From IMG/VR virus record IMGVR_UViG_3300025267_000020, positions 1 through 48,040 of that record: DNA of 48,040 nt; one strand, 5' to 3'. The translations under genes were made by a program, and so were the position numbers. The notes below the pieces were generated by a model. It saw nothing but the letters and a program-made list of their open reading frames with translations, did not search any database and was not told the DNA's origin. Position 1 is the first letter of the stretch; every line of letters begins with the position of its first letter. Positions 30,684-48,040 of this stretch are shown piece by piece. This stretch comes from a virus. Lineage: Duplodnaviria; Caudoviricetes.

Positions 30684-30790
30684 TTAGATCACCCCAAGCA
30701 CAAAGCCATCAAAATCCAACACTTCAACAAATCCCATCAACGCGCCACGGGATAATTCGGCAACGTCAACACAAAACTCGACTAAAAAAT

Positions 30791-30901
30791 CTACTCATGC
30801 TCACTCCCTAGACGCTTATCGCAATCGCGGCAAATCCACGAATCAGCACTTTTCAAAACCGCTGTACACAACGTGCAACGACGGATCTTTTTCGCGTCCA
30901 T
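30791..30901 (-). CDS. 36-aa zinc-finger microprotein
   Basis: MDAKKIRRCTLCTAVLKSADSWICRDCDKRLGSEHE, starting 1 nt after the AAA stop. Confidence 0.5.
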   Translation of the reverse strand: MDAKKIRRCTLCTAVLKSADSWICRDCDKRLGSEHE

Positions 30902-30902
30902 A

Positions 30903-32468: not shown

Positions 32469-32824
32469 CCTCTCGATCTCCTTTCATCTTCGCGCCATCC
32501 CCAACCATCCTCTTTCAACTTATACATTGTCACTCTCACGGTATGCGGAGAAATTCCAAGCACATCACCAATCGCTTTCGCTGTGCCTGCACCAAGGCAA
32601 AATCGCACAATTTCTTCTTGCCGCTGTGTGAGCTTTTTTTCTCTCCCCTGGATGTCAGTCCAGCCTTTTTCATTTTCCGCCAGAACCGCCTTCGCCCAAC
32701 GTTGACGCCGAATCAGCACCACTGACATTCCACGATCTTTTATGTACGTATCCTCAACTACAGATTTACGACTGTCAAGATCCACCGAAAGAGGCATGTC
32801 TGTGTTGTTGTTTGTCTTAATCAT
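32465..32824 (-). CDS. LuxR-type HTH protein (leaderless, MIK start)
   Basis: LTQRQEEIV....G...KAIGDVLGISPHTVRV. Confidence 0.8.
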   Translation of the reverse strand: MIKTNNNTDMPLSVDLDSRKSVVEDTYIKDRGMSVVLIRRQRWAKAVLAENEKGWTDIQGREKKLTQRQEEIVRFCLGAGTAKAIGDVLGISPHTVRVTMYKLKEDGWGWREDERRSRG

Positions 32825-32830
32825 GTATAG

Positions 32831-32859
32831 ATAGTATCAACGAGATTCACTAGTGTCAA
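32831..32859 (-). promoter_or_regulatory. promoter cassette 9
   Basis: TTGACA-17-(TGA)TACTAT; shares ttaatcatgtatagatagtatcaacgagattcac with cassette 10. Confidence 0.85.
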
Positions 32860-32879
32860 CCATTAAAAACGACCATCAC

Positions 32880-32909
32880 AAAAAAAAGGCTGGCAGTGAT
32901 GCCAGCCTT
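32880..32909 (-). terminator. intrinsic terminator
   Basis: AAGGCTGGCA-TCAC-TGCCAGCCTT followed by T run. Confidence 0.85.
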
Positions 32910-32929
32910 AACCCCAGCATATAAAAAAA

Positions 32930-33235
32930 TCAGTAAACGTAAACACCACTCTGGCAAGCTTCAATGGTAGGAAAACGACCAGCTGAATGGTCTGTGATTA
33001 TCGCCACTGGTGCAAATCTGCCTTGCTCAGTCACTGATACCATCCACGTTGCGATCCTCGCTCCATCCTCGCCCCACACTCCATTACCCTCAACGCGCAT
33101 CCCAGCCAATTCAGAAAATTTAACCAATGCCTTGATTGCGTTGTTTTGCGTTTTGTAGCCTTTGTGGCTGGGCGTCGTCTGGTGCGGGTTGCTCGCTGTC
33201 ATGTTGTTTTCTCCTTTGTCGTTTGCCTTAATCAT
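32930..33235 (-). CDS. hypothetical protein (MIK start, or internal SD-led start at 33202)
   Basis: KGYKTQNNAIKA...GRFAPV motif; two in-frame starts. Confidence 0.65.
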   Translation of the reverse strand: MIKANDKGENNMTASNPHQTTPSHKGYKTQNNAIKALVKFSELAGMRVEGNGVWGEDGARIATWMVSVTEQGRFAPVAIITDHSAGRFPTIEACQSGVYVY

Positions 33236-33241
33236 GTATAG

Positions 33242-33300
33242 ATAGTATCAACGAGATTCACCCGAGTCAAGAAAAAAAATGGCCGCCTCAGAAAAAAAAC
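33242..33300 (-). promoter_or_regulatory. promoter cassette 10 (first promoter of early region)
   Basis: T tracts, TTGACT-17-(TGA)TACTAT. Confidence 0.85.
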
Positions 33301-33355
33301 TTTTCTGCAACTTCGGCATTTTCACCCTCGCTATAGTCAACTATGCTTACACCTC

Positions 33356-33934
33356 TCACCGGACAAAACCCAATGTCCGACGCAACCACCCGATCAAAAA
33401 CACCATCTGATCTGGATGACTCTTCACAAATTCAGCCAATCGCAATGACCGCACCCTTGCCAGTGAATTGCTCGATTCTCTATATCCTGTCGCTTGTATC
33501 GCATCCAAGGTATTTGGACCGATCAACCCATCCACATCAGTATCAACCGCACGCTGCAAATCCTTCACCGCCAGAAACGGACCACTCATTACAGAATCGT
33601 CGATCACCTGAGCCTGTAGCTCTGGATCTGGTATTTTCTGTATCCCATTTGTCTCCACGTAACGCCGACGATAGATCGTGAGAGCCTCATTTTTCGTCAA
33701 GGCTTTTAGATCGTTTTTAGACGCTGGTCTACGCCTCCACGATGAGAGCGTTGCCAAGGTGATCCCGCCCTTCGTCGGACCACCGCGATCCTTTGGATGC
33801 TCGGTATATTCCGGCCAACCTTCACGCTGTAAAATATCAGCCAAGACCTTATCGATTGCACCCATACCAGAACCCTCACCTAAATCAACGGCAGTGACAA
33901 CCGCGTGCCAATCACGACCTCGGCTTTGCTCCAC
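33356..33934 (-). CDS. endolysin, glycoside hydrolase family 108 with C-terminal peptidoglycan-binding region
   Basis: REGW..Y..HPKDRGGPTKGGIT, LQRAV...VDGLIGPNT, FLIGWLRR; start may be 33865. Confidence 0.9.
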   Translation of the reverse strand: MEQSRGRDWHAVVTAVDLGEGSGMGAIDKVLADILQREGWPEYTEHPKDRGGPTKGGITLATLSSWRRRPASKNDLKALTKNEALTIYRRRYVETNGIQKIPDPELQAQVIDDSVMSGPFLAVKDLQRAVDTDVDGLIGPNTLDAIQATGYRESSNSLARVRSLRLAEFVKSHPDQMVFLIGWLRRTLGFVR

Positions 33935-35072
33935 CGGACATCTCCCACGCTACACCTTCCCTGATCAGCATCTCACCAAAACGCTTCGCCTGCTCAAACG
34001 TTCTTGGTCGAGACGTGAAACCCTTTCCCGGACCAATCGAGCATTCAAAAATCCCCACCGAATGACGCCCGATCCGACCATCTTTTTCGTACCGCTTCAT
34101 CCTCAAATCATGCACTCGATAAAACCCCAACACCCCATCGTACTCATGCCCACCCGCCTCATACCTACCGCGAATGTTCCAGTCAAACGGAGCCTGCAAC
34201 GCGGACACGGTAGCATCTAAACCGTCCACATCGCTCACCGGAATACCCTCACCGGCTCGCTCATGTACGGCAACCGCCGTTCGATCTGGATCTGTCTTGC
34301 GTCTAATGGCAGAGAAAATATCATGCCGTTCCTGCAAACTGTCAGATTGATAAATATCCCCAACCTCACGGAATGGCGTCATGTGCGAACACAGATCCCC
34401 AAACGTTTCAGCAGACTCTTCCAGAAACGGAATCAATCGCTTGTGAGAACCGCCAAGCTCTTGCAAGAAATATTCTTGCGAGCATAAATACGCCCACGGG
34501 CTTTTTCCAATTTCGATAATATGCTTTAACCGTTTCCGCACATGAGCAATTGTCTCTTTTGATCCCAGAGCATGAAACGGTTGCTCACCTAATGCTGGCC
34601 TTGTCCCTGTACTTAAATCAATCACCACATGTGTTGATTCACGCTGTTCCGGTGATCGCAAATATCGCTCAACCTGCTCATCACCAAGCTTCATCGCCTG
34701 ACAAGCAAACAACCAGAATGGACCGTACAAATACGCCCCCCGTGGCTTTTCCCATCCATACGGCAAGCCAACCGATGATTGTTCTGGTGCTGGTGCTGGA
34801 TCAACCTCTTGCTGTCCCTGCACGCTTCTGATCCATTGCTCCAGCTCACCATGCGTTGCACCATTATCCGCTCGTAAAATCACCTCTGCCAATAGCTGTA
34901 ATTCTTCGTGATTTCGCAGAAACCCAGCATCAAAACAACCATCTTTCGCTGATGGTCTTGGGCCAAGCCACTCATGGTGTGGACATAACCGCATCGACAA
35001 ATCAGCCGCCCAACGAATCCATTCCTTCAACCGCAAAATATCATCAGTCGAAATCGGCTTGTCATTGCTCAT
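33912..35072 (-). CDS. hypothetical 386-aa protein
   Basis: Long ORF, no recognised motif; Pro-rich linker suggests two domains. Confidence 0.7.
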   Translation of the reverse strand: MSNDKPISTDDILRLKEWIRWAADLSMRLCPHHEWLGPRPSAKDGCFDAGFLRNHEELQLLAEVILRADNGATHGELEQWIRSVQGQQEVDPAPAPEQSSVGLPYGWEKPRGAYLYGPFWLFACQAMKLGDEQVERYLRSPEQRESTHVVIDLSTGTRPALGEQPFHALGSKETIAHVRKRLKHIIEIGKSPWAYLCSQEYFLQELGGSHKRLIPFLEESAETFGDLCSHMTPFREVGDIYQSDSLQERHDIFSAIRRKTDPDRTAVAVHERAGEGIPVSDVDGLDATVSALQAPFDWNIRGRYEAGGHEYDGVLGFYRVHDLRMKRYEKDGRIGRHSVGIFECSIGPGKGFTSRPRTFEQAKRFGEMLIREGVAWEMSGGAKPRS

Positions 35073-35081
35073 CGACGATCC

Positions 35082-35534
35082 TTACCTATGCACGCACACG
35101 ATCATTGACGGAAATGGCGCACCCGCATTCGCACCAGCAAACCGCACACGACCACGGATAAATTCGATACTGATTCCACGCCGCGGTTTATTCACACACC
35201 ACAAATGATCGTGAAACCAACTTACATCTGTTCTGGATGGCAGCAAGAAAATACCGCCTCGTTCCCGCACACCCTTTTCAACCCAATGCTTAATTTCTCG
35301 CCCATAGGGAGGATTGCAAAACCACCACTCACCAGACCTTGACCACACTTGCGACAAGCCATCATCGGATTCATTAAAAAAATCCAAACACTTCGCATTC
35401 GATGCAGACGCGCAAACATCCAATGTAATTTTTTGTCCGTATCTGCGCCAAACATCTTTCGCGATTACATCAAATAAATGCTGTGGCGTTGCCCAATCGG
35501 AACGCTTAGACCGCGGAATATACCCACCCATCAT
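35082..35534 (-). CDS. phage N6-adenine DNA methyltransferase (Dam-like, phage type)
   Basis: DWATP, TLDVCAS, DDGL, FCNPPY, LLPSRTD, GRVRF, APFPS. Confidence 0.9.
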   Translation of the reverse strand: MMGGYIPRSKRSDWATPQHLFDVIAKDVWRRYGQKITLDVCASASNAKCLDFFNESDDGLSQVWSRSGEWWFCNPPYGREIKHWVEKGVRERGGIFLLPSRTDVSWFHDHLWCVNKPRRGISIEFIRGRVRFAGANAGAPFPSMIVCVHR

Positions 35535-35827
35535 CGCACTCTTGCCGTTTCAATCACTGCGCGTGAATCTTCAGAATACGTCTCAAACTCCTGAACGAAT
35601 TTCGCGAACGCTGGCGGTTTCTTTGCCCCCTTGCCGCATAACGCGCACCCACGACAATTGCCGTTTTTGGTATGCTCGATATTCCACCCGTACGTGAATG
35701 CTCTTGCCCTCACACCCTGATACGGATTCATCCACCACTCGATACCTTTTTTCGCCGCTCTTAATCCGTTCCGATAGGCTGATCGAAAATTCTCCGATCC
35801 ACTTGCATGGCCTTCATCCTTCATTCC
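35531..35827 (-). CDS. hypothetical protein
   Basis: AYRNG...MNPY...AFTYGW, similar to the neighbour 35814..36032; start approximate. Confidence 0.5.
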   Translation of the reverse strand, partial: GMKDEGHASGSENFRSAYRNGLRAAKKGIEWWMNPYQGVRARAFTYGWNIEHTKNGNCRGCALCGKGAKKPPAFAKFVQEFETYSEDSRAVIETARVR

Positions 35828-36032
35828 AACCAGCTTTCCACGACGCGCCACGCTTCCCAAAGTACGGATTCATCCATACCGGTTGCCCTTTGGCTTTCGC
35901 AATCTTGCCTTGCTCACGCGCCATCACAACGTTTTTCTGGTGCTGCACATTTCGATGCTTTTGATCCCCGCCCACGTTGATCAAATCATCATCGTACTGA
36001 CAATACGTATTCGCTGACGCCTTCACCCTCAT
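35814..36032 (-). CDS. hypothetical protein (RMF-like NPY...W.AGW motif)
   Basis: AREQG..A..KG....MNPY...SWKAGW. Confidence 0.55.
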   Translation of the reverse strand: MRVKASANTYCQYDDDLINVGGDQKHRNVQHQKNVVMAREQGKIAKAKGQPVWMNPYFGKRGASWKAGWNEG

Positions 36033-36283
36033 TCACTACCACCAGACCCAGGAAAACACCCAGCGCGATCCACCGGAGTATCAGCCGTATTCACACAAAG
36101 CTGCTGAATAATTTGCGTCAACGCTCGCATCTCTCTCGCGTGTTCTTCCTCGTGCAATTCTAGGCTCCCCATCATCCCAACAGACAGCACATACACCAAA
36201 TACATGGCAATCGCAGAAGGCACGCCCACCAGTGAAATAAACCTTGCCCACGGTGGCAAACTGCCATTCATCCCATTTGCCAT
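36029..36283 (-). CDS. holin-like single-pass membrane protein
   Basis: Hydrophobic FISLVGVPSAIAMYLVYVLSVG; at the end of the tail genes. Confidence 0.55.
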   Translation of the reverse strand: MANGMNGSLPPWARFISLVGVPSAIAMYLVYVLSVGMMGSLELHEEEHAREMRALTQIIQQLCVNTADTPVDRAGCFPGSGGSE

Positions 36284-36287
36284 AGCT

Positions 36288-36587
36288 CTACTCTACTACT
36301 GGCCCCGCCTGCATAGGTCTGTTTTCAGCTTCTTTGATATACGCTGCCCGCGCCTCATCATCCCACGCGGCATTTGCGATGCCTCTTATGTACTCGCCTT
36401 CATCCTCCAGCGGATTCGGAACCCACTCACCATCCCGCATCACACATGGCGTTTCAACTCGTCGATGGAATTTTTGGCTGATTACCTCGCCATCCTCCAA
36501 GACTTCAGTAAGCTCACGTATCTGCAAGGACCGTGCAGCTCCGATAAATTCAATCTTGTCCTCACTTATTCGCTTTTCAAGTGCCAT
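36288..36587 (-). CDS. tail-fibre-associated small protein
   Basis: MALEK....DKIE.....LQIR..T.VLEDGEVISQKFHR motif, typical downstream of LDDYEEG fibres. Confidence 0.7.
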   Translation of the reverse strand: MALEKRISEDKIEFIGAARSLQIRELTEVLEDGEVISQKFHRRVETPCVMRDGEWVPNPLEDEGEYIRGIANAAWDDEARAAYIKEAENRPMQAGPVVE

Positions 36588-36598
36588 ATGTGCCCTAC

Positions 36599-37498
36599 CT
36601 ATGAATTCGTATAATACGTAAAGCTCGCCCAAAGATATCGTCCATCCCCACTCGTGTCGGTGATGTTGTTTAACGACCATGCAACATCATCACCGATTGA
36701 ATAGACCCTGAAATGATCACTGTTGCAGTAGACAATCGAGTATGTGCAATTCGTTGAAATATTCATCAAGTTCATCATCGGTGCGCCGCCGACGTCCGCT
36801 AGATTGCATGTAAATGGCACCGTGATAGACAGATGCCCCGTCGCATTTGTCGGAACCGTGAAATCGTCGAATCGAAAATGCACAAAGACAAGACGGCCAA
36901 TTTTGCAGTAATTCCCCGTCGTTCCAGTGATCCGATAGGTGCTGTCTCCAGTGTTTCCTGTCGTGGCCCCATAGAGGTATGGGGTATAGGTGCCTTCTTC
37001 GTAGTCGTCGAGGTAATTCGAGCCAGCATCGAACGAGACACCCGATGTCCCGAGGCGTAGACGCTCAGATGTCCCGTCTGCATTAAATAGGCGAATGTTA
37101 TCAGGTGTCGAGGCGCGATAATCAGTCGCCCCGTTGTACCAGGTCCGCCTGATCCAGTCAGTTGTCGTGCCACCAGTTGGAGTCGGAATCTGAATCAATG
37201 ACTCGCTGCTGTCGTCAACAACCTGTATCTTCCACTCTTTGGTATTTGTCGTCTCTTTTAGTGACAGATATGGGTCCGCCCCTTCGATCCGCAGAGCCGC
37301 TGTTGAATCATACCCATACAGCCCACTACCAGGTGTCACTGCGGAGGTGCCGTTGCCCATGAGGATGGCATTATCCGTCAGATTCAGCCCACCCACAAAC
37401 GTATGGATCGCAGAAATATTTTCTTTAATTTCCTGATTCATATAGGAGGCAGTTACCAACTCACCAACAGCCCATGTCCTAGGTGTCTGATACGCCAC
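36599..37498 (-). CDS. tail fibre / receptor-binding protein
   Basis: MAYQTPRTWAVGELVTA anchor, YLDDYEEGTYTP, YCKIGRLVFV. Confidence 0.85.
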   Translation of the reverse strand: MAYQTPRTWAVGELVTASYMNQEIKENISAIHTFVGGLNLTDNAILMGNGTSAVTPGSGLYGYDSTAALRIEGADPYLSLKETTNTKEWKIQVVDDSSESLIQIPTPTGGTTTDWIRRTWYNGATDYRASTPDNIRLFNADGTSERLRLGTSGVSFDAGSNYLDDYEEGTYTPYLYGATTGNTGDSTYRITGTTGNYCKIGRLVFVHFRFDDFTVPTNATGHLSITVPFTCNLADVGGAPMMNLMNISTNCTYSIVYCNSDHFRVYSIGDDVAWSLNNITDTSGDGRYLWASFTYYTNS

Positions 37499-37637
37499 TT
37501 GCTTTCTCCTCCAGCTCTGTGACCTTTTCCAGCAAGGTCCGAATCAGTACGCCTTGACGGTGAATCGTGACTTGATTATCACCGATCATTTTCATCAAAT
37601 CGTCCACCGACACATCTGGCAATTGTGCTTGATCCAT
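37479..37637 (-). CDS. 52-aa coiled-coil protein
   Basis: Not in ORF track; AAGGAGG RBS; MDQAQLPDVSVDDLMKMIG...LLEKVTELEEK. Confidence 0.65.
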   Translation of the reverse strand: MDQAQLPDVSVDDLMKMIGDNQVTIHRQGVLIRTLLEKVTELEEKASGVSDT

Positions 37638-37655
37638 TCGTAATGCCTCCTTTGG

Positions 37656-39404
37656 TTACCATCCAAGAATAGTAGATTCTTCCAGCTCCGAAAACCCTTC
37701 AACCTCCAGTTTCCACATGTCCGCCGTAGTCCCTGGAGCCAAATAAAACCGGGCCTTGATCATCCCTCCATCGCTCAGGCTTAACCCGATCCGCTGGATC
37801 ACCATGTTCGATCCAGCCGCCCCAGTCGCCGTCTCCGTCACCGCGATCACGTCAGCCGGTTCCCGCTCTAGTGCCTGCGTAAGCAAATCCGCAGAATCAT
37901 TTCCGAGAAATTCCACCGACTCCAGCATAGCGACCGTGCGAGCGTTCCACCGCTCCTCGACCGTCAGCGCGTACGACTGCGCCACCGTCGCGGAATCCTG
38001 ATATTTCAAATTGATATCAAGCACACGATCCCCGTATGCCGTTGTGGACTGTGCTTCCATCGCCTGCTCAGAACGCTGATAGACGCCCTTTCCACGCACC
38101 TGCAACAATGGCGTAGCCCCAGCATTTAATCCCGCCACTTGAGCAAGATACAAATCCGTAGCTGATGAACTCACAAACGTAACTTTGGCCTGGGTTGCAT
38201 ACGCGACCGTAGTGGCTGCAATTGATCCCGTGCCTTCGGTCCCGGTCCCGTTCTTATTCGGAAACGCTCGGTAATCCGTGGTGGCTGCCACGCTCACCAC
38301 ATCTTTTCCACCAATCAACTCCAGCGTCTGATCGGCATTTCGGTACGTGAGCCACACCACGACCGTTTCACCGGCTGGAATTAATAGCGGATCGCCGTCC
38401 CACGCATAAATCACGACCGCACTAGCATCCACATGGCGAGGATTCAGCGTGACCCGAACGTGGTTCACCAGCTCTTCGATACTTGCATTCGTCGCCATTG
38501 CCAGCATCGAATTGTTAAACGTAAATACCGGATTTGCTGATGAGCGGTTCTGCCGATTTTTAAAAACAAACGTACTGTCACCACGGCAAAAGACAAACCC
38601 GAACGCCGCGGTTGCGGCATCCTTCACCATCGCTAACGCATTCCGCCCCCGCCCGATATCATCAAACGCATAGGGAAAAGTATCGATCCCGGCATCCATC
38701 ACGCGATACTCAGAACTGGTTTGCGTCGATGTGGGTAAATAATCCAGCACGGCAGAAATCAGTTCCGCCTCTGTCTTGTCCTCCTGCAACGCAATATCCC
38801 GCACGTTGACTTGCGACAGCGTGTACATGGCATCCATCGAGATCACATTAACGTACCGCGAGCCATACGCCCCCGGCTCAGGATCGGCTGAAAATAGCCA
38901 CCCGTTATGCCTACAGTACGCCTTGCGTACCAGGATCGTGCCTGTCGGCGTGGACCCTGGATCTGCGGATAACTTGTAGGTGATTTGTGTAGCTGTGATC
39001 GCCGTGATCCGGTGGTGCCCGTTATAGACCGCTTGCGCTGCGCCGGAAATCGTCACCCAGTCACCGACCGCATACGCATGACCTGAAATCGTGACCGTGA
39101 CATCCACGCCAGATCGACTGATCGCCGACGCTGACGCTGCGCTGTCTGTGGCCCGATGCAGGATCACCCGCACCCGCGCACCGAGATCCCACCCCGTGGC
39201 TACACTGGAATGATGGAAACTATACTCCCAGCCTCGCACCGTAAACGCACACTCACCAACCCCCGCGACGATATCCAGCGGCTGATCCCCGCTGATCCCA
39301 TACTCGATTTCGATCCCCTCACCTGACAGCACATCGCCGGAAATATCCGACCATGTATCAGTGGCAGATTCGTAAAGTACAGAAACCTCAGCCGCGACAC
39401 CCAT
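37656..39404 (-). CDS. minor tail / tail-tip hub protein
   Basis: 582 aa directly after tape measure; GFVFCRGDSTFVFKNR; inserted GHAYAVGDWVTISGA...YNG beta-domain. Confidence 0.75.
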   Translation of the reverse strand: MGVAAEVSVLYESATDTWSDISGDVLSGEGIEIEYGISGDQPLDIVAGVGECAFTVRGWEYSFHHSSVATGWDLGARVRVILHRATDSAASASAISRSGVDVTVTISGHAYAVGDWVTISGAAQAVYNGHHRITAITATQITYKLSADPGSTPTGTILVRKAYCRHNGWLFSADPEPGAYGSRYVNVISMDAMYTLSQVNVRDIALQEDKTEAELISAVLDYLPTSTQTSSEYRVMDAGIDTFPYAFDDIGRGRNALAMVKDAATAAFGFVFCRGDSTFVFKNRQNRSSANPVFTFNNSMLAMATNASIEELVNHVRVTLNPRHVDASAVVIYAWDGDPLLIPAGETVVVWLTYRNADQTLELIGGKDVVSVAATTDYRAFPNKNGTGTEGTGSIAATTVAYATQAKVTFVSSSATDLYLAQVAGLNAGATPLLQVRGKGVYQRSEQAMEAQSTTAYGDRVLDINLKYQDSATVAQSYALTVEERWNARTVAMLESVEFLGNDSADLLTQALEREPADVIAVTETATGAAGSNMVIQRIGLSLSDGGMIKARFYLAPGTTADMWKLEVEGFSELEESTILGW

Positions 39405-42400
39405 TAATTAAATGCGCCTTCCTCGCGGAATTTCTGCGTCAGTTGCTGTGCCATTTTTCTTGGGGCTTCACGACCTTGTGTGACTAACTGCCCGATCCGA
39501 TAACTGATCTCATCCAACTTTTTGGCCTCGGGAGACGCGCCACCCGCACCCGCCCCGCTCTGCCGGAACGATAGCCCCATTTGATGATCACTCCCAGGCC
39601 AATCTGGATCTCGTGTCGGATCATCCACGTTCCAATCAATCCGGATGGGCGGAACGGTCGGCACATCGACATTCACAGCGACATCCACAGAATCTGGAAT
39701 CTGATCGACCGCTGTGACCACATCCCCAATCGGCGTCAGGGTGTCAATAAAGGTCTGGATCAGATTCCGGATCTCACCCATCACATCAACCAATTGTTCC
39801 GACATCGGCTTGGCAAAATCGATCTCACTCAAATCCTCAATTTTCAATCCATTTTCATCCACTAACCTGCCCTGCTCAATCATGTGACCTATGATCGGTT
39901 TCATATCCGCAGGGATTTTTGTGCCAGCCCACCGCGCATCGCGCACCATCGCATGGATCGCTGGACCTTGAGCAAGGATCACATCCTCCATGCTCATCCC
40001 CGATGCGATGAGCAGATCGAAATCCGTTTTGATCTGGGCAGCGCGTTCAGAAATTCTCGCCTCCTGAAACGCTGGTCCCAAATCGCTCAACTGAATCCCG
40101 TACCGCTCCGCTGCCGCTTCCATCGCTTTGGTATCCAGCTTCGTCGCGCCAGCCATCAGCATAAATCGCGTCTTCTGCTCATCCGTAATCACGCCCAAAT
40201 GAATCAGCGTGTCGAGTAGTGGCCCAAGCCCCTCCACCGTGACATCATCAAGCCCCTCCTGGATCGTTGTCAGCACTCCCGGCAAATCCGTCCCCAGTGC
40301 CTGATTGACAAGATCCTCCCCAACCACCTCGATGATGCGATTCATGTTCAATCCGAATTCATCAGCCAACCGTATCAATTCAAAAAATGCCTCCTGACCC
40401 TCTAACCCCGCCTGATCAAATGTCAGCGCCAAATCCCCCAGGACTGGCAGCAATCCTCGCAACGCTTCATCCGCGTCCAGCTTGCCCTGCTCCATAGCAG
40501 CAAAGGTGTCCCGCGCCGCTCCTGCTACTTTTCCGAAGCCCACTGCCATGACACCACCAGCTTCATCAATCACAGTTTTCAACGACATCAGCAAGCCAGC
40601 GAAATCATCCCCAACTTTGATCGCCATTTCCTCAGCTGCTCGTGCGGCTGTATCTGTCAGCACGATCCCCCACATCCGCTCAGCCGTCAGCTTTAAATTT
40701 TGCCTCGTATCCCTCCCAAACAACCCAGCAACCAACTTTCCAACAGCAACCATCCCTTTGCCAACAATCTTCACACCCTCATTCACCAACGCCTGAATAC
40801 CGCCGGAAATAATATTTCCAATCCCTTCAACAATTCCAGTCCCAATGCCACTAAAAAATCCAGTCAAGCCTTGACCGCCAGTTAAACCCTCTACCAGACC
40901 CTTGGCAGCATTCTTCATCGAACCAAACACACCAACCGTTTCTTCGACCTCCAGCTTTGTCGCATTTGCTGCGATCTCAGCCTCTTCAAACGCATACGCC
41001 ACATTACGCAATTCCGGCGTTAACTGACCGCCTTTGCGTTTCAGCTCAGACGCTTTCCGCCCTAATTCCTGAAACTGGTATTCACTCAGCTCACCCTTTT
41101 CCGTAGCTAACTCAAACCCAGCCGCTAATGCTTCAACCTCAAACCGCAAATTCTCACCAGACAATTCCTTAGCCAAAGAGATTGCCTTTTGCTCCAAATC
41201 CGTTAACTCAACCTCGATTTTTTTGGTTTCCTTTTGTGCCTCTTGATGAGCCTCCACCAGCCCACGCAAATCATCATCCAGAGGCATGATCCCTTGCTCG
41301 GCAAGACTCACCGCAGCCCGTTCCGCACGTTCCATCACATGCCGATTTTCTCGCTGCTCAGGAGTCAAATCCTTCCACGCCGATTCAAGCAACTCCAGAT
41401 CACGCAACAAGCCATCACCAGCCAATTCAGCACGTAACGACTCAGTATCATCTTTAAGCTTCTTTGCTGCTTCTGCCTGGACTTCTATTTGTTCTGCCGC
41501 TATCCTTGCCGCTTCTGCCGCTTTCCTTGCCGCTTCTTCCTGCTTCAAAACCGCAGCTGCTGCCCCCGCCGCTTCTGACTCCTCACGCTCAAACCAACGG
41601 ACCACATTCTCAAGCTCAGGAGTTAACGTTTTATTTGCTTCTCTCAATTCAATTGCACGCTGAGCAATCGTAACCATCTCATCTCGGCTCAATCCTCCAA
41701 CAACCCCACCAAGGTTCGCCATTGCCACATGCAAATCCTTCACAGACCCTTGAACCCCAGCCCCCCCTAACGCCTCACGTAACGTTTCCGCTGTCGGTGT
41801 GATATCCCCAAGATTTTCTTTTAACGCCAACGCAGCCCGTTCAGCTTCCGCCTGCTCATCCGTCAAAAATCCCAACGTATTTTTGAGACTGATCCACGCT
41901 CGTTCCAACAACTGCGTTTCCTGAACCCACTTGAACAGCTTCACCCCAGCGATCACCAGCCCCAACGCGACGATCCCACCAGTAAGCACAGCAGCCGCCG
42001 TCGCCAACCCGCCCAACGTCACACCCAACGCAACAACCGCCGATCCCCATATTGCCAACTGACCCACAACCATCAACACCGCACCTGACATCGCTGCGAT
42101 TGCCGACACCACAAGAATCGTTTTCTTTGCTGCCGGACTCAACTCCTTAAACCACGACACAATAGCTGACACCGCCGGAACAACTTTTTCCTGCACAATC
42201 ACCAACAACGCACCAAACGCTGGAACCAACTCATCGCCTAATCGCTGAGCAGTCACCACAAATGATTGTCTGAGTTTTGCGAAATCCGCACCGGCTTTGT
42301 TTATGCCTTGCTCTTGCTCATTGAGAGCCTCAGTCAATGTCCCGGTTGCGCCTTCCATCTGACCAAGATTTGACGTGAATTTTTCAGCCTGCACACCAGC

Positions 42401-43300
42401 CAAACCAGCGATCAAATCCCAGGATTCCGTACTGCCAAACAACTTGGTCATCTCGCTTTCGGACCCACCAACCGCGCCAGTTAACGCCGTCAATGTCCCG
42501 TGAAAACCAAGAGTCTCAATCGCAGCCTCACCGCTGGCAAAACCGATCTTGTCCAATGCCACCCACATCTCTTCAGATGGTTTCTTTAATCCAGTCAAGG
42601 CACCTTTGAATTGCGTTGCCACTTCCGACGCACTACCAGTTACCCCCGTCATTGTGGCAAACACCGCATTTAATTCTTCTTGCGTAATCTGCAACCCTGA
42701 CGCGGAAATTGCCACCTTGCCAATAGCACTCGCTAATTCAGGAAACGACGTTTGCCCAAGCTTGACCGTCGTAAACGCAAGATCAGCAGCACGTTCAACG
42801 CCTTCTTTCGTTGTTTCTCCGTATGCCTTTGTGACCGCACTTGTCAACGCGATTGCATCTGCCGTTGTTGCCATACCAGCACCAGCAGCCTTGACATTCA
42901 ACTCAAGAATCTTTGCCGTATCCGCACTATCACCAAACGCCGACACGACCTGATACAAACCATCCGAAATATCACCAGTGCTTTTCCCCGTCGCTAACGC
43001 TAAATCCTGAACGCTCGTTTTTAATTCCTTGACACGCTCAACGTTTCCCGGAATCAATGTAGCAACGTTCGCCATTGCCTTATTGATATCCCCGGAAAAC
43101 TTCAACGCCGCAGTTGCCGCACCCAACAACGGCAAACCGATCCCAGCGGAAATTTTCATTCCCGTTGATCTGATCGAATTCCCGCTTAACGCAATTTTTT
43201 TCGTGGCCTTTTCCGCATTAGAGACAGCGGCTCGCATTTGCTTGCTGAAACTATCGCGCAAGGCAAACACCGCATAGATACTCCCAACATTCACAGCCAC
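39404..43300 (-). CDS. tape measure protein, allele B (TP901-type)
   Basis: 1298 aa, Ala-rich helical, central hydrophobic segment. Confidence 0.95.
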   Translation of the reverse strand: MAVNVGSIYAVFALRDSFSKQMRAAVSNAEKATKKIALSGNSIRSTGMKISAGIGLPLLGAATAALKFSGDINKAMANVATLIPGNVERVKELKTSVQDLALATGKSTGDISDGLYQVVSAFGDSADTAKILELNVKAAGAGMATTADAIALTSAVTKAYGETTKEGVERAADLAFTTVKLGQTSFPELASAIGKVAISASGLQITQEELNAVFATMTGVTGSASEVATQFKGALTGLKKPSEEMWVALDKIGFASGEAAIETLGFHGTLTALTGAVGGSESEMTKLFGSTESWDLIAGLAGVQAEKFTSNLGQMEGATGTLTEALNEQEQGINKAGADFAKLRQSFVVTAQRLGDELVPAFGALLVIVQEKVVPAVSAIVSWFKELSPAAKKTILVVSAIAAMSGAVLMVVGQLAIWGSAVVALGVTLGGLATAAAVLTGGIVALGLVIAGVKLFKWVQETQLLERAWISLKNTLGFLTDEQAEAERAALALKENLGDITPTAETLREALGGAGVQGSVKDLHVAMANLGGVVGGLSRDEMVTIAQRAIELREANKTLTPELENVVRWFEREESEAAGAAAAVLKQEEAARKAAEAARIAAEQIEVQAEAAKKLKDDTESLRAELAGDGLLRDLELLESAWKDLTPEQRENRHVMERAERAAVSLAEQGIMPLDDDLRGLVEAHQEAQKETKKIEVELTDLEQKAISLAKELSGENLRFEVEALAAGFELATEKGELSEYQFQELGRKASELKRKGGQLTPELRNVAYAFEEAEIAANATKLEVEETVGVFGSMKNAAKGLVEGLTGGQGLTGFFSGIGTGIVEGIGNIISGGIQALVNEGVKIVGKGMVAVGKLVAGLFGRDTRQNLKLTAERMWGIVLTDTAARAAEEMAIKVGDDFAGLLMSLKTVIDEAGGVMAVGFGKVAGAARDTFAAMEQGKLDADEALRGLLPVLGDLALTFDQAGLEGQEAFFELIRLADEFGLNMNRIIEVVGEDLVNQALGTDLPGVLTTIQEGLDDVTVEGLGPLLDTLIHLGVITDEQKTRFMLMAGATKLDTKAMEAAAERYGIQLSDLGPAFQEARISERAAQIKTDFDLLIASGMSMEDVILAQGPAIHAMVRDARWAGTKIPADMKPIIGHMIEQGRLVDENGLKIEDLSEIDFAKPMSEQLVDVMGEIRNLIQTFIDTLTPIGDVVTAVDQIPDSVDVAVNVDVPTVPPIRIDWNVDDPTRDPDWPGSDHQMGLSFRQSGAGAGGASPEAKKLDEISYRIGQLVTQGREAPRKMAQQLTQKFREEGAFN

Positions 43301-43302
43301 GA

Positions 43303-43593
43303 TTATTCCCCTTTGACTATCGCAACTTCGTTCCTGATCACATCCTCGATCATCGGAACATCGTCCAACTTCTCACCCTTGCTCATATTGTCAAATCGAT
43401 GCTTTGCCGCTGCATATACACGCATTCGCAAAATCTCAAAAATAATCCGCCTATAATCACGCTCTAACTCTGCAATTGCCACACTCGGCGTACAATGGAA
43501 TTCCTCGCACACGCGAGAAATAATCCACGCCGATGGAACCTTGGCCCCAGGTACACCGTTAAGCGTTTCATGCAGAGCCTTCAACCGTTTTTT
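43303..43593 (-). CDS. tail chaperone -1 frameshift extension, allele B
   Basis: A-AAA-AAC at 43587-43593; close homologue of 1306..1596. Confidence 0.75.
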   Translation of the reverse strand, partial: KKRLKALHETLNGVPGAKVPSAWIISRVCEEFHCTPSVAIAELERDYRRIIFEILRMRVYAAAKHRFDNMSKGEKLDDVPMIEDVIRNEVAIVKGE

Positions 43594-43976
43594 GCTGTTT
43601 CCTCATCCTCAACTGGGTTGCGTTTACAAATCTCAATCGCCATCCATCGCGCCGTTTTCATATCCAAATCACGAATTCTTTCAAGCGTAGGTTTCCCATC
43701 ATAACTCCATCCAACCAACGCCTTATTAATCAACGTTTCCCAATCATACGAATCAACCGGATCACGCTCTTGATCATCATCATCAACCTGTCTTTTCGAT
43801 GATCTCATGATAGCCTCAAACACATCGCCACCCATGTCACGCACATCCGCCACGCCTTTTCTTTGCTTGACCTTTCCAGCCTCCTCAATCGCAGTAAACG
43901 ACAATTGACGCAGATCAACCCACTGCCCCTCTTCATGCGGAATATCCACACGCTCAACGATCTTACTCACAAGCAT
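43581..43976 (-). CDS. tail assembly chaperone, allele B
   Basis: Homologue of 1584..1982. Confidence 0.8.
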   Translation of the reverse strand: MLVSKIVERVDIPHEEGQWVDLRQLSFTAIEEAGKVKQRKGVADVRDMGGDVFEAIMRSSKRQVDDDDQERDPVDSYDWETLINKALVGWSYDGKPTLERIRDLDMKTARWMAIEICKRNPVEDEETAKNG

Positions 43977-43993
43977 TCAATAAAACCTTTCCC

Positions 43994-44455
43994 TTAATTT
44001 GCAAAACCAGAAACAACCTTTTTAAACTTATACAACACGCCGGCAAATTTTCTCGCCGCTTCTTTTTTCATTTCATCAGAATCCTCATCCATAACAGACG
44101 TTATAAACTTAGCCTGACCACGCTTGTCGTAAACCACTTTTTTTCCACGTCGATAATATACACCCTTGCCCGTATGCGATAACGACATATCCTCATGAAT
44201 TCTCAACGCATACGCTTTCGCCGAACCACCAGCAACCCAACGCACCTCTGGACCCTTTGCACGCATCTTCGGTTCTTGTGCATGGACACTTGCACGCAAA
44301 CGATTACGCATGACCGGCGTGCGATCTTTCATTTTCGTTGCGCGTGGTTCTGCAATCTCACGCATAATCCGCACACCTTCACGATCAACGAGTAGGGATA
44401 TTTTTGTTAATGTTCTAAATAAATCATCACCATCAATATCAAACTCGTCATCCAT
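43994..44455 (-). CDS. HK97 gp10-like protein, allele B
   Basis: RTPVM...LR...YALRIHED...GQAKFI. Confidence 0.65.
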   Translation of the reverse strand: MDDEFDIDGDDLFRTLTKISLLVDREGVRIMREIAEPRATKMKDRTPVMRNRLRASVHAQEPKMRAKGPEVRWVAGGSAKAYALRIHEDMSLSHTGKGVYYRRGKKVVYDKRGQAKFITSVMDEDSDEMKKEAARKFAGVLYKFKKVVSGFAN

Positions 44456-44469
44456 AGATCACCCAATAG

Positions 44470-44510
44470 CACAAACGGCAGATCGACAGCAACGCCATCG
44501 ACCTGCCGCT
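44470..44510 (-). terminator. hairpin downstream of pqqA-like gene, allele B
   Basis: GCGGCAGGTCGATGGC-GTT-GCTGTCGATCTGCCGT, 16-bp stem. Confidence 0.7.
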
Positions 44511-44533
44511 TACACTTCCCCCCCTTGACAAAC

Positions 44534-44605
44534 TTATGCTTGCGTTACGTACAACGACACTTCCATATTCAACGCAACCGGCTTCGCTGTAGGTTTAGTC
44601 CACAT
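44534..44605 (-). CDS. pqqA: PqqA-like precursor peptide (23 aa), allele B
   Basis: MWTKPTAKPVALNMEVSLYVTQA; TAAGGAG RBS; 20/23 identical to allele A. Confidence 0.8.
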   Translation of the reverse strand: MWTKPTAKPVALNMEVSLYVTQA

Positions 44606-44617
44606 AAAACTCACTCC

Positions 44618-45034
44618 TTATGCTTCAGTTGCCGCGCCACTTGGACGGAATGTTGCCCGAACCAAATGCAAGGAATCCCGATCCAATACCCGCTCGTAAT
44701 CCACGATCCAGCCCTCAACCGTGGTCGTTTTCGATCCACCATACGTCACCACCAACGTTTTTTGTTGGTCTGCTGGACCGTTCGCCACATCACCCAATAC
44801 CGCGTCTGTCGTATTGCTCGTGTCGTCGTACCACGCTTCAATCGAAATGTCATCCATCGACCGAACGCCCGTACTCAATGACTCTTTCCACGAATCACCA
44901 AACCCAGTTGAATCCACCATGCCAGCATTGATCTTAATCCCGCCAAAACTGGTAATGTACTGCGACAAATTTCGAGCTGTTCCGCCGCTGTCATCCACCG
45001 TAATCGCTACTGAACTTGGACCGTATTTAGCCAA
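44618..45034 (-). CDS. major tail tube protein, allele B
   Basis: 136/138 identical to 2604..3020. Confidence 0.75.
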   Translation of the reverse strand: MAKYGPSSVAITVDDSGGTARNLSQYITSFGGIKINAGMVDSTGFGDSWKESLSTGVRSMDDISIEAWYDDTSNTTDAVLGDVANGPADQQKTLVVTYGGSKTTTVEGWIVDYERVLDRDSLHLVRATFRPSGAATEA

Positions 45035-45049
45035 TATAATTCTCCTTAC

Positions 45050-45769
45050 TTAACCACGATAAAAGCCCAGCATGAACGTGAATGATGGACTAGACCCACC
45101 TATAGTGAAACTTGCACGCACGTACCGATTCACCGTCCCTGTTGCCGTTTTTCTTTCTGCCCCTAACGCAGTCGCTTGCGTCATCGAAATCAAATCCGCC
45201 CAGCTTGAATTGTCCGCAGAATGCTGCACCTTGGCATCCAATGTCGGACTGGACCCACTTGCCGCCGTGATCTGCAAATACGCCGATCCCCCATCAGAAG
45301 AGGAAGCAGTTTGATCCTGGGATGCCGAATTTCCCGTGGCGGTTTCTGCCCCTAGCGCATGCAAAATAGTGCCATCCTCGACCGCGCCAGAAATCGTATA
45401 ACTGCAATTCAACTTGTGCAATCCGTCTTGCTGAATCAATCGATCAACCTGCCCACCAAACGCACCTTCAAATCCTGTGAAATCTGTACCAATCGTACCG
45501 CCAGCAGGAGCCACAGACACGATCTGTGATGTCGCTTCATTCCCCACCAACGCCGTAACTACAGAATTCGTCGCGTCATCAAACCAACCCGATTGCGTGA
45601 GCGTAGCAGACCGCACCCCCACTGGCGTGGCTTCCGCCCACGCATCCCCCAGCGATCCCGTGGATTCTGTGGTCGTCTGCACCTTGTACGTCAGCGTTGA
45701 GATCACCCCAGCCAGCGACCGCCCGCCGACCAATACAAACCCAACGCTACTCGCTCCATATTTCGCCAT
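45050..45769 (-). CDS. tail-tube-like paralogue, allele B
   Basis: Near-identical protein to 3036..3755. Confidence 0.65.
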   Translation of the reverse strand: MAKYGASSVGFVLVGGRSLAGVISTLTYKVQTTTESTGSLGDAWAEATPVGVRSATLTQSGWFDDATNSVVTALVGNEATSQIVSVAPAGGTIGTDFTGFEGAFGGQVDRLIQQDGLHKLNCSYTISGAVEDGTILHALGAETATGNSASQDQTASSSDGGSAYLQITAASGSSPTLDAKVQHSADNSSWADLISMTQATALGAERKTATGTVNRYVRASFTIGGSSPSFTFMLGFYRG

Positions 45770-45792
45770 CAGTCAATCCCCCTCACCGATAG

Positions 45793-46020
45793 CTAATCAG
45801 CATCCGCAACTGAAGACTCTGCGATATAGCCATCTTTCAAAAGCCATTTCTGTGCGGATTTCGGTAGACCCTCACATAGCCCACCAGCCTCAACCCGAAT
45901 TTCCTTCAGTGCCTCACGCTCTTCATCCGCCAGCTTCGACACGCCGCCAGCCTTCTTGATCGCCGCCAATCCATCGGCATCAGGAAAATTCAACCCCACC
46001 ACGGCTCGATATACCTTCAT
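45793..46020 (-). CDS. small virion-region protein, allele B
   Basis: Homologue of 3780..4013. Confidence 0.7.
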   Translation of the reverse strand: MKVYRAVVGLNFPDADGLAAIKKAGGVSKLADEEREALKEIRVEAGGLCEGLPKSAQKWLLKDGYIAESSVADAD

Positions 46021-46139
46021 GACTTCTCCGCCCTTTCAAAGCCACAAACTTTGCACATCAAAATAATCTTCCCACCAAAGCCCTCATGCGTGTGCTGTTT
46101 TTCATGGCTTGCGCCACACTGCGAACAATTGCCCTTCAT
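46017..46139 (-). CDS. 40-aa zinc-ribbon microprotein, allele B
   Basis: MKGNCSQCGASHEKQHTHEGFGGKIILMCKVCGFERAEKS. Confidence 0.75.
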   Translation of the reverse strand: MKGNCSQCGASHEKQHTHEGFGGKIILMCKVCGFERAEKS

Positions 46140-46534
46140 GATAGATCCTTGATGATGCTTGCGTTTAAAACGTAAACTGGACGCCTATTGTCATCGACCT
46201 TGAGCAAGAATGGTGGAGAAGGATTTACCGACTCATAAAACACACTTGATAACGACTCAGCATCAACCCGCCCCAACGCATCATGCGCGGCTTGAGCATT
46301 TGCCCTTGCCGTATCAAAGCTCACAGCCCGTGATAAAAATTGCATCTGCGGAAACTCACGACCGATCCCAGGAGAACCAAATTCTTTTTCTGATGATCGT
46401 CCACCAGTCATCACCACTGCCATTGCTGTATCCGGTGACGTTTCCGGCAACGCATCCTCAAACAGATCCGTGCCAATCGCAGTCGCGACACCAGCAGAAA
46501 CAAGATACGCAGTCACCTCAGCAATTGTCGCCAT
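46136..46534 (-). CDS. tail terminator-type neck protein, allele B
   Basis: Homologue of 4129..4527. Confidence 0.7.
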   Translation of the reverse strand: MATIAEVTAYLVSAGVATAIGTDLFEDALPETSPDTAMAVVMTGGRSSEKEFGSPGIGREFPQMQFLSRAVSFDTARANAQAAHDALGRVDAESLSSVFYESVNPSPPFLLKVDDNRRPVYVLNASIIKDLS

Positions 46535-46896
46535 TATGAAAAATACAATACCGATACATATGGCACATCGGCAGAATCAACCATCGAATCACACCGCACC
46601 AACGGACGCACCACCGATCCCGGTAACGTTATCTTATCCTGTGGATCAAACACAGTTTTCCCCAACACCACTAATTGTGTTGTGGATGTTCGCTCATTCC
46701 CGCTATCATCCAACACCCTCGCAGGAACATCGTGCAATAATCCAGTCATCGTTACCGCAGATCCATGCACTGAACGCCCATTTTTATCCAAGCTCGCCGA
46801 AGTTGGTTCGCGAGTAAACGTTACTTGCATCCCGCCATTATTCGTAACATCATGCGCGACCTTTACCCCCGCATGAATGGCGTTCGCAATGCTCAT
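46534..46896 (-). CDS. head closure protein, allele B
   Basis: Homologue of 4527..4889. Confidence 0.65.
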   Translation of the reverse strand: MSIANAIHAGVKVAHDVTNNGGMQVTFTREPTSASLDKNGRSVHGSAVTMTGLLHDVPARVLDDSGNERTSTTQLVVLGKTVFDPQDKITLPGSVVRPLVRCDSMVDSADVPYVSVLYFS

Positions 46897-47420
46897 GTTC
46901 TCACCAATTCCGCCGTGGTATTCATTCGACTCCGCACCGAATCAAACCAACTTGGTGCCAATAAAAAAAACACCGCATCAGGAATGACTTTCGGTTTACC
47001 ACGACCAGAAAACGAAAGATCAACCGGTCCAGCCTTCAACCCAACAATACCCTTTGTTGATACCGCATCATCCGCCATGCGATCCTCTGCGAGTACCTGT
47101 CGCGCAAACTCCGCCGTCGCATCACGCAATCCATCAGGAATTGCATCAGAATCTAACCCGTATCCGTTACGATCCCACATCCCCGTTCTAGGCCAAGTCA
47201 GCCGCTGGACCGAATCAGACGCCGCGCCAGTCCAATCCACATGCTCATCTAGTAATCGCGTAGCCATTAGCAACGCTTGATCTTTTTGATCATTCGATGC
47301 ACTAGACCACGTTGTACCAGACTGCGGATTGTCATCATCGTACTGGTTCGCATCAGACCGCGTACAATACGTATTCGCATTTGATGCACCAGCCGTAGAA
47401 ACCAACGTGGAAACCGCCAT
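46893..47420 (-). CDS. head-tail adaptor, allele B
   Basis: Homologue of 4886..5413. Confidence 0.75.
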   Translation of the reverse strand: MAVSTLVSTAGASNANTYCTRSDANQYDDDNPQSGTTWSSASNDQKDQALLMATRLLDEHVDWTGAASDSVQRLTWPRTGMWDRNGYGLDSDAIPDGLRDATAEFARQVLAEDRMADDAVSTKGIVGLKAGPVDLSFSGRGKPKVIPDAVFFLLAPSWFDSVRSRMNTTAELVRT

Positions 47421-47569
47421 TACCCGCCAGCCTTCACACGTACAGATTTCCGCACAGATGCCTTTTTCGATCCTGGTTTTTGATGCTGTGTTGCATCAAA
47501 ATCAGACACGTTGATCACTAGTTGATTCCCGGCTTTATCCACCACAACCATCGTTTCAAGTTGCGCCAT
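47420..47569 (-). CDS. 49-aa protein downstream of capsid gene, allele B
   Basis: MAQLETMVVVDKAGNQLVINVSDFD...; homologue of 5413..5571. Confidence 0.7.
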   Translation of the reverse strand: MAQLETMVVVDKAGNQLVINVSDFDATQHQKPGSKKASVRKSVRVKAGG

Positions 47570-47659
47570 GCTTGCCCCTTAGAGACACGAGCAAGACTGT
47601 GATCAACCCTCTCCCAAAAAGCCAATCACAGCCTCACTCACTTGCTACCGCTGAGACAA

Positions 47660-48040
47660 TTAGCCAGCAATCCGCGCAGCCAATTCACGCCTCACGAGTT
47701 GCGCCCCATACAAGATATCGAAACTGTATCGAGTTTGCTTGTGTTGGCGCGTCACTTCCAAACGCAGCGTCAACCCGCTATCAGGATCAAATGCAGATTC
47801 TACAATCGTCCCCAATCGCCGGTCCTCATCCGTTGCCGCTAGTGGTCGTGTGGCAAATGCAAACGCATCCCGGTGAAATGCAAGATTCACCACATGGGTG
47901 GCCTTGAACGTCACCGCTGCATTATCCGCCCAGGCAACTTTTGCCGTTGGGTACATCGTGATTACGGTTGCCGTGGAGCTTGCAACCGTATACGTTTGCG
48001 TGTCGCCTGCAACGGTGAACACATCACCAGCCGCTGGCGC
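47660..48040 (-). CDS. major capsid protein 3' part, allele B (truncated by window end)
   Basis: Matches the C-terminal third of 5657..6772 with 3 amino-acid changes. Confidence 0.9.
   Translation of the reverse strand, partial: APAAGDVFTVAGDTQTYTVASSTATVITMYPTAKVAWADNAAVTFKATHVVNLAFHRDAFAFATRPLAATDEDRRLGTIVESAFDPDSGLTLRLEVTRQHKQTRYSFDILYGAQLVRRELAARIAG
47916..48040. repeat. 125-bp exact repeat of 5913..6037
   Basis: Direct comparison; suggests a ~42,003-bp circular or unit length. Confidence 0.95.

What the first reader, a model, noticed from the sequence alone, without database searches (positions are those of the whole stretch)
44534..44605. Second allele shows the PqqA-like micro-ORF is under purifying selection
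Seen: allele B (MWTKPTAKPVALNMEVSLYVTQA) differs from allele A at 7 synonymous codons (P5, A7, V16, S17, L18, Y19, Q22) and in the stop codon (TGA/TAA). It differs at only 3 residues (Q8K, I10V, D23A), none in ALNMEVSLYVTQ. Length and RBS are retained while the flanking spacers diverge. Inference: this is a translated, functional peptide maintained long-term in this phage lineage, not a recent accidental capture.
Basis: seen in the sequence. Interest (0 to 1): 0.75.

Follow-up and report, generated by a model that had tools for sequence, protein, structure and literature searches.

The report
Phage PQQ precursor from marine Acidobacteria
Two related marine phages carry an intact 23-codon gene, conserved at the protein level, whose peptide likely serves as extra raw material for the redox cofactor PQQ in their probable hosts, a family of Acidobacteria rich in PQQ-type enzymes; viral copies of this gene were already known, mainly from phages of methanol-eating bacteria.

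Summary
Observation confirmed: 7 synonymous codons, a stop swap and 3 replacements; dN/dS about 0.08, with dS (0.94) in the range of the flanking tail genes. The two alleles belong to two co-occurring phages joined in one contig, not to one genome. The ORF is an orphan pqqA of a Vicinamibacterales (Acidobacteriota) subtype: its nearest bacterial relatives sit in complete pqqBCDE clusters, and syntenic prophage-like modules lie in 3 of 104 genomes of that family. It scores below the Pfam and NCBIfam cut-offs, as does one clustered host peptide. It lies between the tail-tube gene and a hairpin. Ten sister contigs lack it, so 'long-term' holds only for this two-phage clade. Two other phage lineages carry the same subtype, one also behind its tube gene. 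Most likely it feeds host PqqD/E/B/C late in infection; translation and conversion are untested. Phage pqqA is in print (2020, 2026), and this scan found it before on other DNA (methylotroph phages); the acidobacterial subtype and the repeated insertion site look new.

The parts
44534..44605 (-). Orphan pqqA-like ORF, allele B (23 codons, W-x-K-P leader, E-V-S-L-Y core)
44614..44620 (-). Ribosome-binding site (TAAGGAG) overlapping the tube gene's stop codon, 8 nt before the ATG
44468..44516 (-). Long hairpin after the ORF (z -3.75). Ancestral: sisters without pqqA have a hairpin right after the tube stop. Not called a terminator by the scan.
44618..45034 (-). Major tail (tube) protein gene, phage B
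   Evidence: phrog_10528, E 1.5e-5
45050..45769 (-). Second major-tail-like gene (239 aa), phage B
   Evidence: phrog_9522
43994..44455 (-). HK97-gp10-like tail gene, downstream neighbour
   Evidence: PF04883
2518..2589 (-). Orphan pqqA-like ORF, allele A (phage A)
2597..2602 (-). Ribosome-binding site AAGGAG of allele A, 7 nt before the ATG
2451..2504 (-). Hairpin after allele A (z -6.97)
2604..3020 (-). Major tail (tube) protein gene, phage A
1..6037 (.). Tail and late-head fragment of phage A (about 60% GC), joined to phage B inside the capsid gene
5913..6400 (.). Capsid-gene segment identical between A-type and B-type contigs (end approximate, 100-bp bins); its first 125 bases recur at the window's end (47916-48040)
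6038..48040 (.). Circular 42.0-kb genome of phage B, a siphovirus-type gene set; no integrase and no pqqB/C/D/E found

Best explanation
The ORF is an intact, selectively conserved, stand-alone pqqA that these phages likely took from a PQQ-making Vicinamibacterales host and that would be translated late in infection, from the tail-tube message, to give the host's PqqD/E/B/C enzymes extra precursor for PQQ. Shown: the intact frame, ribosome-binding site, dN/dS, kinship to clustered host pqqA genes, position between tube gene and hairpin, and the absence of other pqq genes from the phage.
For: Selection. Identity: E15 and Y19 are spaced as in PqqA, and Pfam PqqA is the only hit at E up to 10, covering the whole model. 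A profile from 21 bacterial peptides picks only the two ORFs out of 1,680 six-frame segments (E 2e-12, 4e-11; the peptides were gathered with a pattern partly modelled on the query). 80 of 80 bacterial loci with full flanks have at least one of pqqB/C/D/E. The G350 peptide shares 16 of 22 residues with both alleles, including A-K-P (allele B) and E-V-S-L-Y-V-T, and sits beside pqqC, B, D, E; the G001 peptide shares 15 of 22 and passes both family cut-offs. Host: syntenic head-tail modules (terminase up to 67%, portal 53-55%, tube 51%) in 3 of 104 genomes of G001's family, 0 of 301 in the Gemmatimonadota control. Demand: one pqqA but 75 (G001) and 93 (G002) quinoprotein-like matches, 94 in G350; 7 (G001) and 10 (G350) are over the cut-off. 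Fit with host capacity: the 3 genomes whose prophage-like modules lack pqqA gave no pqqC, pqqE or pqqA match. Recurrence: the same subtype in two other phage lineages, one also between tube gene and hairpin; about 2,800 IMG/VR stretches match a canonical pqqA pattern, and 119 of 120 sampled are 23-codon ORFs. Hosts themselves keep orphan pqqA copies (PMC9851590, passages).
Against: Both alleles fall below the curated cut-offs (Pfam 13.0 and 12.3 bits against 21.1; no NCBIfam hit). Most relatives do without the gene (11 of 15 informative contigs; 0 hits in 83 tail-related loci), so it is optional. The host of A and B is not directly shown: no spacer match was found, the prophage-like relatives are only about 50% alike, and they sit in non-producers. 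Most quinoprotein matches are below the cut-off and some may not bind PQQ. Raising pqqAB alone lifted PQQ by only 29% in Acetobacter against eightfold for the full cluster (PMC7936290, passages), so precursor need not be the limit. In canonical viral copies the neighbourhood is varied: only 5 of 79 lie right behind one kind of major capsid gene.
Confidence: 0.65

Rival explanations
1. Decoy: the peptide binds host PqqD/PqqE but is poorly processed, so it blocks PQQ synthesis or spares SAM, iron-sulfur clusters and oxygen for the phage.
For: A and B differ from every host peptide seen in the leader (one residue shorter at the start; Thr for Glu after the proline). Ser for Thr in the core occurs in three phage lineages but in only 1 of 52 family genomes with a match.
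Against: Glu and Tyr are kept in all alleles, and a decoy could drop them. The Ser core is natural in G350's complete cluster. Canonical viral copies keep typical PqqA cores (E-V-T-M-Y in 95 of 119).
Confidence: 0.1
2. The peptide becomes PQQ, but the point is receptor masking: late PQQ would close the PqqU importer, if that is the phage's receptor, against superinfection or re-binding of progeny to debris.
For: PQQ blocks infection by a PqqU-using coliphage (PMC12124388, passages). PqqU-like transporters occur in 91 of 104 family genomes; 25 of the best 30 keep the published three-residue signature, 7 of them in genomes that also have pqqC. The gene sits in the tail module.
Against: No PqqU match in G001 or G350, the genomes with the closest peptides (they may be incomplete). 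The paper found no PQQ synthesis in its 17 PqqU-bearing Acidobacteria (section 11). The receptor is unknown. Released PQQ would also shield the next hosts. The gene recurs in many unrelated phage families.
Confidence: 0.08
3. The conservation was earned in bacteria: A and B each picked up pqqA from different hosts recently, and it is neutral cargo in the phages.
For: Most relatives lack it. A and B have recombined recently in the capsid gene, so modules move.
Against: Same insertion site; shared phage-only leader residues; 19 of 22 residues shared between A and B against at most 16 with any host; dS in the range of the flanking genes; A and B are sisters, 98/100; further variants keep the frame.
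Confidence: 0.05
4. The peptide has been co-opted for another job (a virion or tail-assembly peptide, or substrate of a different host RRE/radical-SAM system), or it makes PQQ as an antioxidant or public good rather than for respiration.
For: It lies inside the tail operon in two lineages and scores below the family cut-offs.
Against: Sisters assemble tails without it. In the third lineage it lies outside a tail-tube operon. The conserved residues are those of PqqA.
Confidence: 0.12

Closest known systems
Bacterial PqqA (Pfam PF08042, NCBIfam TIGR02107), Vicinamibacterales subtype (G001/L022, G002/L046, G350/L420)
   Same: Length, W-x-K-P leader, nine-residue spacing to E-x-x-x-Y, C-terminal Y-V-T, strong RBS, hairpin downstream (L022); 15-16 of 22 residues identical with G001 and G350
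   Different: No pqqB/C/D/E nearby or in the genome; one residue shorter at the start; below the curated cut-offs; placed in a tail operon
Viral pqqA of methylotroph phages (Lake Baikal population VP_266, 10.1101/2020.04.02.019802; cultured phages Venkman, MEP301/401/402, P19250A, Melnitz)
   Same: Stand-alone precursor gene in a phage, usually unannotated (no feature at the match in five cultured genomes, 'hypothetical protein' in four Melnitz records)
   Different: Other subtype (about 50% identity to the Venkman copy); probable host is not a methylotroph; no methanol dehydrogenase or radical-SAM gene in this phage
Virus-encoded pqqA/pqqD/pqqE in reservoir sediments (PMC13188868)
   Same: pqqA listed as a viral auxiliary gene
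   Different: One 2.5-kb contig, with predicted hosts in Actinomycetota and Gammaproteobacteria (supplement rows); no selection or context analysis in the passages seen
Orphan extra pqqA copies in Hyphomicrobium denitrificans (PMC9851590)
   Same: Precursor gene separate from the enzymes, some copies highly expressed
   Different: Cellular, not viral

Membership tests
PqqA (PF08042 / TIGR02107) | Score above the curated cut-off | tested here: not met
   13.0 and 12.3 bits against 21.1; no NCBIfam hit. The clustered G350 peptide also fails (15.4 bits; no TIGR02107 match), so the models miss this subtype.
PqqA (PF08042 / TIGR02107) | Short ORF (about 22-30 codons) with RBS | tested here: met
   23 codons, AGGAG at 7-8 nt
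PqqA (PF08042 / TIGR02107) | Glu-x-x-x-Tyr core | tested here: met
   E15 and Y19 in both alleles; no listed variant changes them
PqqA (PF08042 / TIGR02107) | N-terminal W-x-[KT]-P leader at the family's spacing (its role in PqqD binding is recalled) | tested here: met
   Full-length alignment to the model, 1-19 of 19; same register as host peptides
PqqA (PF08042 / TIGR02107) | Homology to precursors of complete pqq clusters | tested here: met
pqq biosynthetic cluster | pqqB, C, D, E beside pqqA or in the same genome | tested here: not met
   No tblastn hit at E 1e-4 in the window or in 248 viral and metagenome loci, 40 of them under 700 bases
PqqA (function) | Bound by PqqD, cross-linked by PqqE, converted to PQQ | not testable with these tools
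   Needs biochemistry; the peptide is shorter than the 30 residues the complex tool asks for
Phage auxiliary metabolic gene | Inside a viral genome, flanked by viral genes | tested here: met
   Between tail genes, in several separate contigs
Phage auxiliary metabolic gene | Expressed during infection and changes host metabolism | not testable with these tools
   No infection or ribosome data could be had

The most novel reading that the evidence does not exclude
Phages of PQQ-making marine Acidobacteria have captured the precursor gene at least three times, twice into the slot behind the tail-tube gene, to set off a late burst of PQQ that closes the host's PqqU importer, their receptor: a cofactor used as a superinfection and progeny-release shield, which at lysis also feeds the roughly half of the family in which no PQQ synthesis was found.
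Probability: 0.08. Interest if true: 0.85.

Novelty: new variant of a known kind. Interest (0 to 1): 0.46.

Why it matters
If right, stand-alone viral pqqA is not a quirk of methylotroph phages but a repeated strategy across phyla: supply only the consumable peptide and borrow the host's enzymes. It gives codon-level evidence that such a gene is kept by selection inside a phage lineage, points to a host for phages of an uncultured marine acidobacterial family, and shows that a 23-codon gene missed by gene callers and by Pfam cut-offs can act as a host marker. It also makes a direct test possible of whether precursor supply limits PQQ synthesis in cells with dozens of quinoprotein genes and one pqqA.

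Tried and rejected
Duplication within one genome: rejected. Separate A-only (L005, L006, L295) and B-only (L003, L004) contigs exist, a reciprocal join exists (L296), and A-type and B-type contig depths are about 22 and 10 in run X1 but about 18 and 23 in X3 (both runs may be the source of the DNA). Real recombinants are not excluded. Chance ORF, or selection on another frame: rejected. Decayed remnants in sisters: none seen; the spacer is only the hairpin. Expression: no RNA holder listed. Promoter and terminator scan of 43900-45200: no promoter, and the hairpin was not called. SSB homologue search for the host: 7,999 hits, not informative. DNA search of 104 family genomes with window 28100-48040 gave no convincing spacer; short hits of 25-53 bases were not followed up, and window 1-28099 was not searched. 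The L271 tube protein found nothing in 104 family genomes, so that lineage's host rests on the peptide alone. The tube-only tree was unresolved; the four-gene tree holds 9 of 14 sources, since L009, L014, L018, L271 and L276 lacked a hit for at least one gene. The complex prediction was not run, because the peptide is under 30 residues. No cultured phage holds this subtype (two weak hits, E 5-6). Papers that added nothing: PMC11118758 (one passage), PMC9004378 (no 'pqqA' in the main text), PMC12801897.

Full report
Observation. The 23-codon ORF is at 44534-44605 on the minus strand and its counterpart at 2518-2589. NG86 gives dS 0.94, dN 0.073 and a ratio of 0.078 (Fisher p 3.5e-4, binomial p 0.002). 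Random placement of 12 changes left an open frame with at most 3 replacements in 0.05% of 200,000 trials, and the other five frames are less conserved. Neighbours: tube gene dS 1.15 (ratio 0.013), 239-aa tail gene dS 0.62 (0.031), tail terminator dS 2.0 (0.086). The estimate rests on 22 codons of one pair. Contigs from four runs of one further study add four variants inside the ORF, three synonymous and one T3I, while four indels fall just outside it; I at that position also occurs in one bacterial copy.

What the window is. It is an IMG/VR virus record with a siphovirus-type gene set and no integrase hit. Its first 6 kb repeat the last 6 kb at 70-78% identity and are about 60% GC against 41-55% elsewhere. 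The last 125 bases recur at 5913-6037 in the capsid gene. L004 runs from 13031 through that point into 48040-40256, so 6038-48040 is a circular 42.0-kb genome, phage B. L295 carries the A tail with a different upstream part of 58% GC, and L296 is the reciprocal join. A and B types are identical only over about 5913-6400. Their contig depths vary independently between two runs. The alleles are therefore orthologues of two co-occurring phages, most likely fused by the assembler in a recently exchanged segment; the exchange itself suggests a shared host (inference). The runs holding the stretch are marine metagenomes (15 of 20 may be its source).

What the peptide is. Pfam PqqA is the only hit and covers the whole model, but at 13 bits it is under the cut-off of 21.1; NCBIfam gives nothing. 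The 10 with the L-N-M-E-V core are titled Acidobacteria UBA2990 (1), Bryobacterales (1) or Vicinamibacteria/Vicinamibacterales (8). All 80 loci with full flanks have at least one of pqqB/C/D/E; L022 has pqqA, B, C, D and E over the curated cut-offs. In G001's family 52 of 104 genomes match a pqqA pattern and 54 have a pqqC match. G350's peptide shares 16 of 22 residues with both alleles, including the Ser-containing core, lies beside pqqC, B, D and E, and also falls below the Pfam cut-off. I therefore call the ORF an orphan pqqA homologue by descent, while formal membership by score is not met. No pqqB/C/D/E or PQQ dehydrogenase was found in the window or in 248 viral and metagenome loci.

Host. 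Fully syntenic head-tail modules lie in long contigs of G186, G409 and G281, 3 of 104 family genomes; I read them as prophages but did not map their ends. The tube protein found nothing in 301 genomes of the Gemmatimonadota control; other phyla were not searched. These three modules lack pqqA, and their genomes gave no pqqC, pqqE or pqqA match though they have PQQ-type dehydrogenases. That fits a gene useful only in producers, but the three are close kin and the genomes may be incomplete. G001 and G002 have one pqqA match each against 75 and 93 quinoprotein-like matches; G350 has 94 (only part of the candidates were scored, and 7 in G001 and 10 in G350 pass the family cut-off).

Distribution and position. 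Of 16 tube relatives in IMG/VR, 4 are A or B type with the ORF, 10 contigs (about 7 lineages, 85-90% tube identity) and one distant contig lack it, and one is cut off. A motif scan of 83 tail-related loci found no copy elsewhere. A and B are sisters (98/100) among non-carriers, so one gain on their stem is the simplest reading. In the four non-carriers folded, a hairpin follows the tube stop directly; in A and B the ORF lies between stop and hairpin, and in B its RBS overlaps the tube's stop codon. Two other lineages carry the same subtype: siphoviruses L271, L276 and L297, whose tail genes are only about 31-35% alike where they align at all, again right after the major tail gene and before a hairpin; and a 57.6-kb phage with a family-A DNA polymerase (L266, L280), whose peptide matches G001's at 22 of 24 residues. 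A second viral scan for the core found only these 8 contigs. The canonical subtype is far commoner: about 2,800 stretches estimated from 3 of 64 parts, with 119 of 120 parsed being 23-codon ORFs and 118 having an RBS-like word. It is also present, unannotated or hypothetical, in nine cultured Methylophilales/Methylophilaceae phage records. Its contexts vary: 5 of 79 follow one kind of major capsid gene (2 checked by PHROGs), others follow SSB or endolysin genes.

How it most likely works. PqqE cross-links Glu and Tyr of PqqA held by PqqD, and PqqB and PqqC finish the cofactor (PMC9851590 and PMC7936290, passages). The peptide is consumed and the enzymes are reused, so a 72-base gene is the cheapest lever. 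Placed behind the tube gene and ahead of the hairpin, it would be made in bulk late in infection (inferred; the scan did not call the hairpin a terminator). Extra PQQ would keep periplasmic dehydrogenases, and so respiration, running during assembly. I put this at 0.65; decoy 0.10; receptor masking through PqqU 0.08 (PqqU-like genes in 91 of 104 family genomes, signature in 25 of 30 checked, but none found in G001 or G350); other uses 0.12; neutral cargo 0.05. Translation, processing and benefit are all untested.

What is known. Viral pqqA was reported from Lake Baikal methylotroph viruses (10.1101/2020.04.02.019802, passages) and from reservoir sediments (PMC13188868, passages and supplement rows). 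This scan noted it before in at least five other phage genomes, described as methylotroph or T4-like phages; no note matched this genome, this sequence or the acidobacterial terms. Searches (open-licence PMC and bioRxiv only; listings) showed no report of an acidobacterial viral pqqA, of selection on one, or of the tube-gene site. I did not see the supplements of the Baikal paper or of ocean AMG catalogues such as PMC11360552 (listing only), which could hold such entries. PMC12124388 was read in passages and sections 10-11.

Verdict. Real, conserved and correctly described. It is a new variant of a known kind: an orphan viral pqqA of a non-methylotroph host family, gained repeatedly and twice at the same operon slot. 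The claim of long-term maintenance holds for the A+B pair only. Interest 0.46.

Noticed in passing
window 9122-12271 (-): 1,049-aa MuF head-morphogenesis protein with a C-terminal ADP-ribosyltransferase-like domain (PF04233, PF03496), the build of a MuF polymorphic toxin; the three prophage-like relatives match only its N-terminal part.
   Followed up: partly
window 7119-7202, 7894-8012, 25041-25125, 26352-26433, 26800-26921, 27099-27179, 28101-28162, 28358-28462, 32800-32888, 33188-33301 (-): About ten related 80-120-base cassettes: a T-run, often after a small hairpin, then a sigma-70-like promoter (TTGAC..., about 17 nt, TA...T), often with an AAGGAG RBS; two sit inside the head module. None lies near pqqA.
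   Followed up: partly
window 5913-6400 against L295, L004, L296: About 490 identical bases in the capsid gene between phages otherwise about 78% alike: a recent exchange, and the cause of two reciprocal joined contigs.
   Followed up: yes
INPHARED records MT375522, OP830906, OP830907, KX815270, MW452941: Five cultured methylotroph phage genomes have no annotated feature over an intact pqqA-like match; in Venkman it lies on the strand opposite to its neighbours.
   Followed up: partly
family of G001 (104 genomes): About half have pqqC, most have a PqqU-like importer with Glu at the K274 position, and 7 of the 25 signature-bearing loci come from genomes that also have pqqC, unlike the 17 Acidobacteria in PMC12124388.
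   Followed up: partly
L273 9948-10001 region (-): A PqqA-like ORF of another subtype (E-V-T-S-Y core, longer tail) in a 71-kb phage contig, just upstream of a 511-aa secreted-looking protein with a weak PQQ_2 hit.
   Followed up: no
L444 4845-7851 (G186): The tail genes from terminator to assembly chaperone are tandemly repeated in this module; real duplication or assembly error not tested.
   Followed up: no
window 12276-13975 and 7148-7897 (-): Inserts of unknown ORFs between portal and MuF and between scaffold and capsid; the prophage-like relatives have little room for the second.
   Followed up: no
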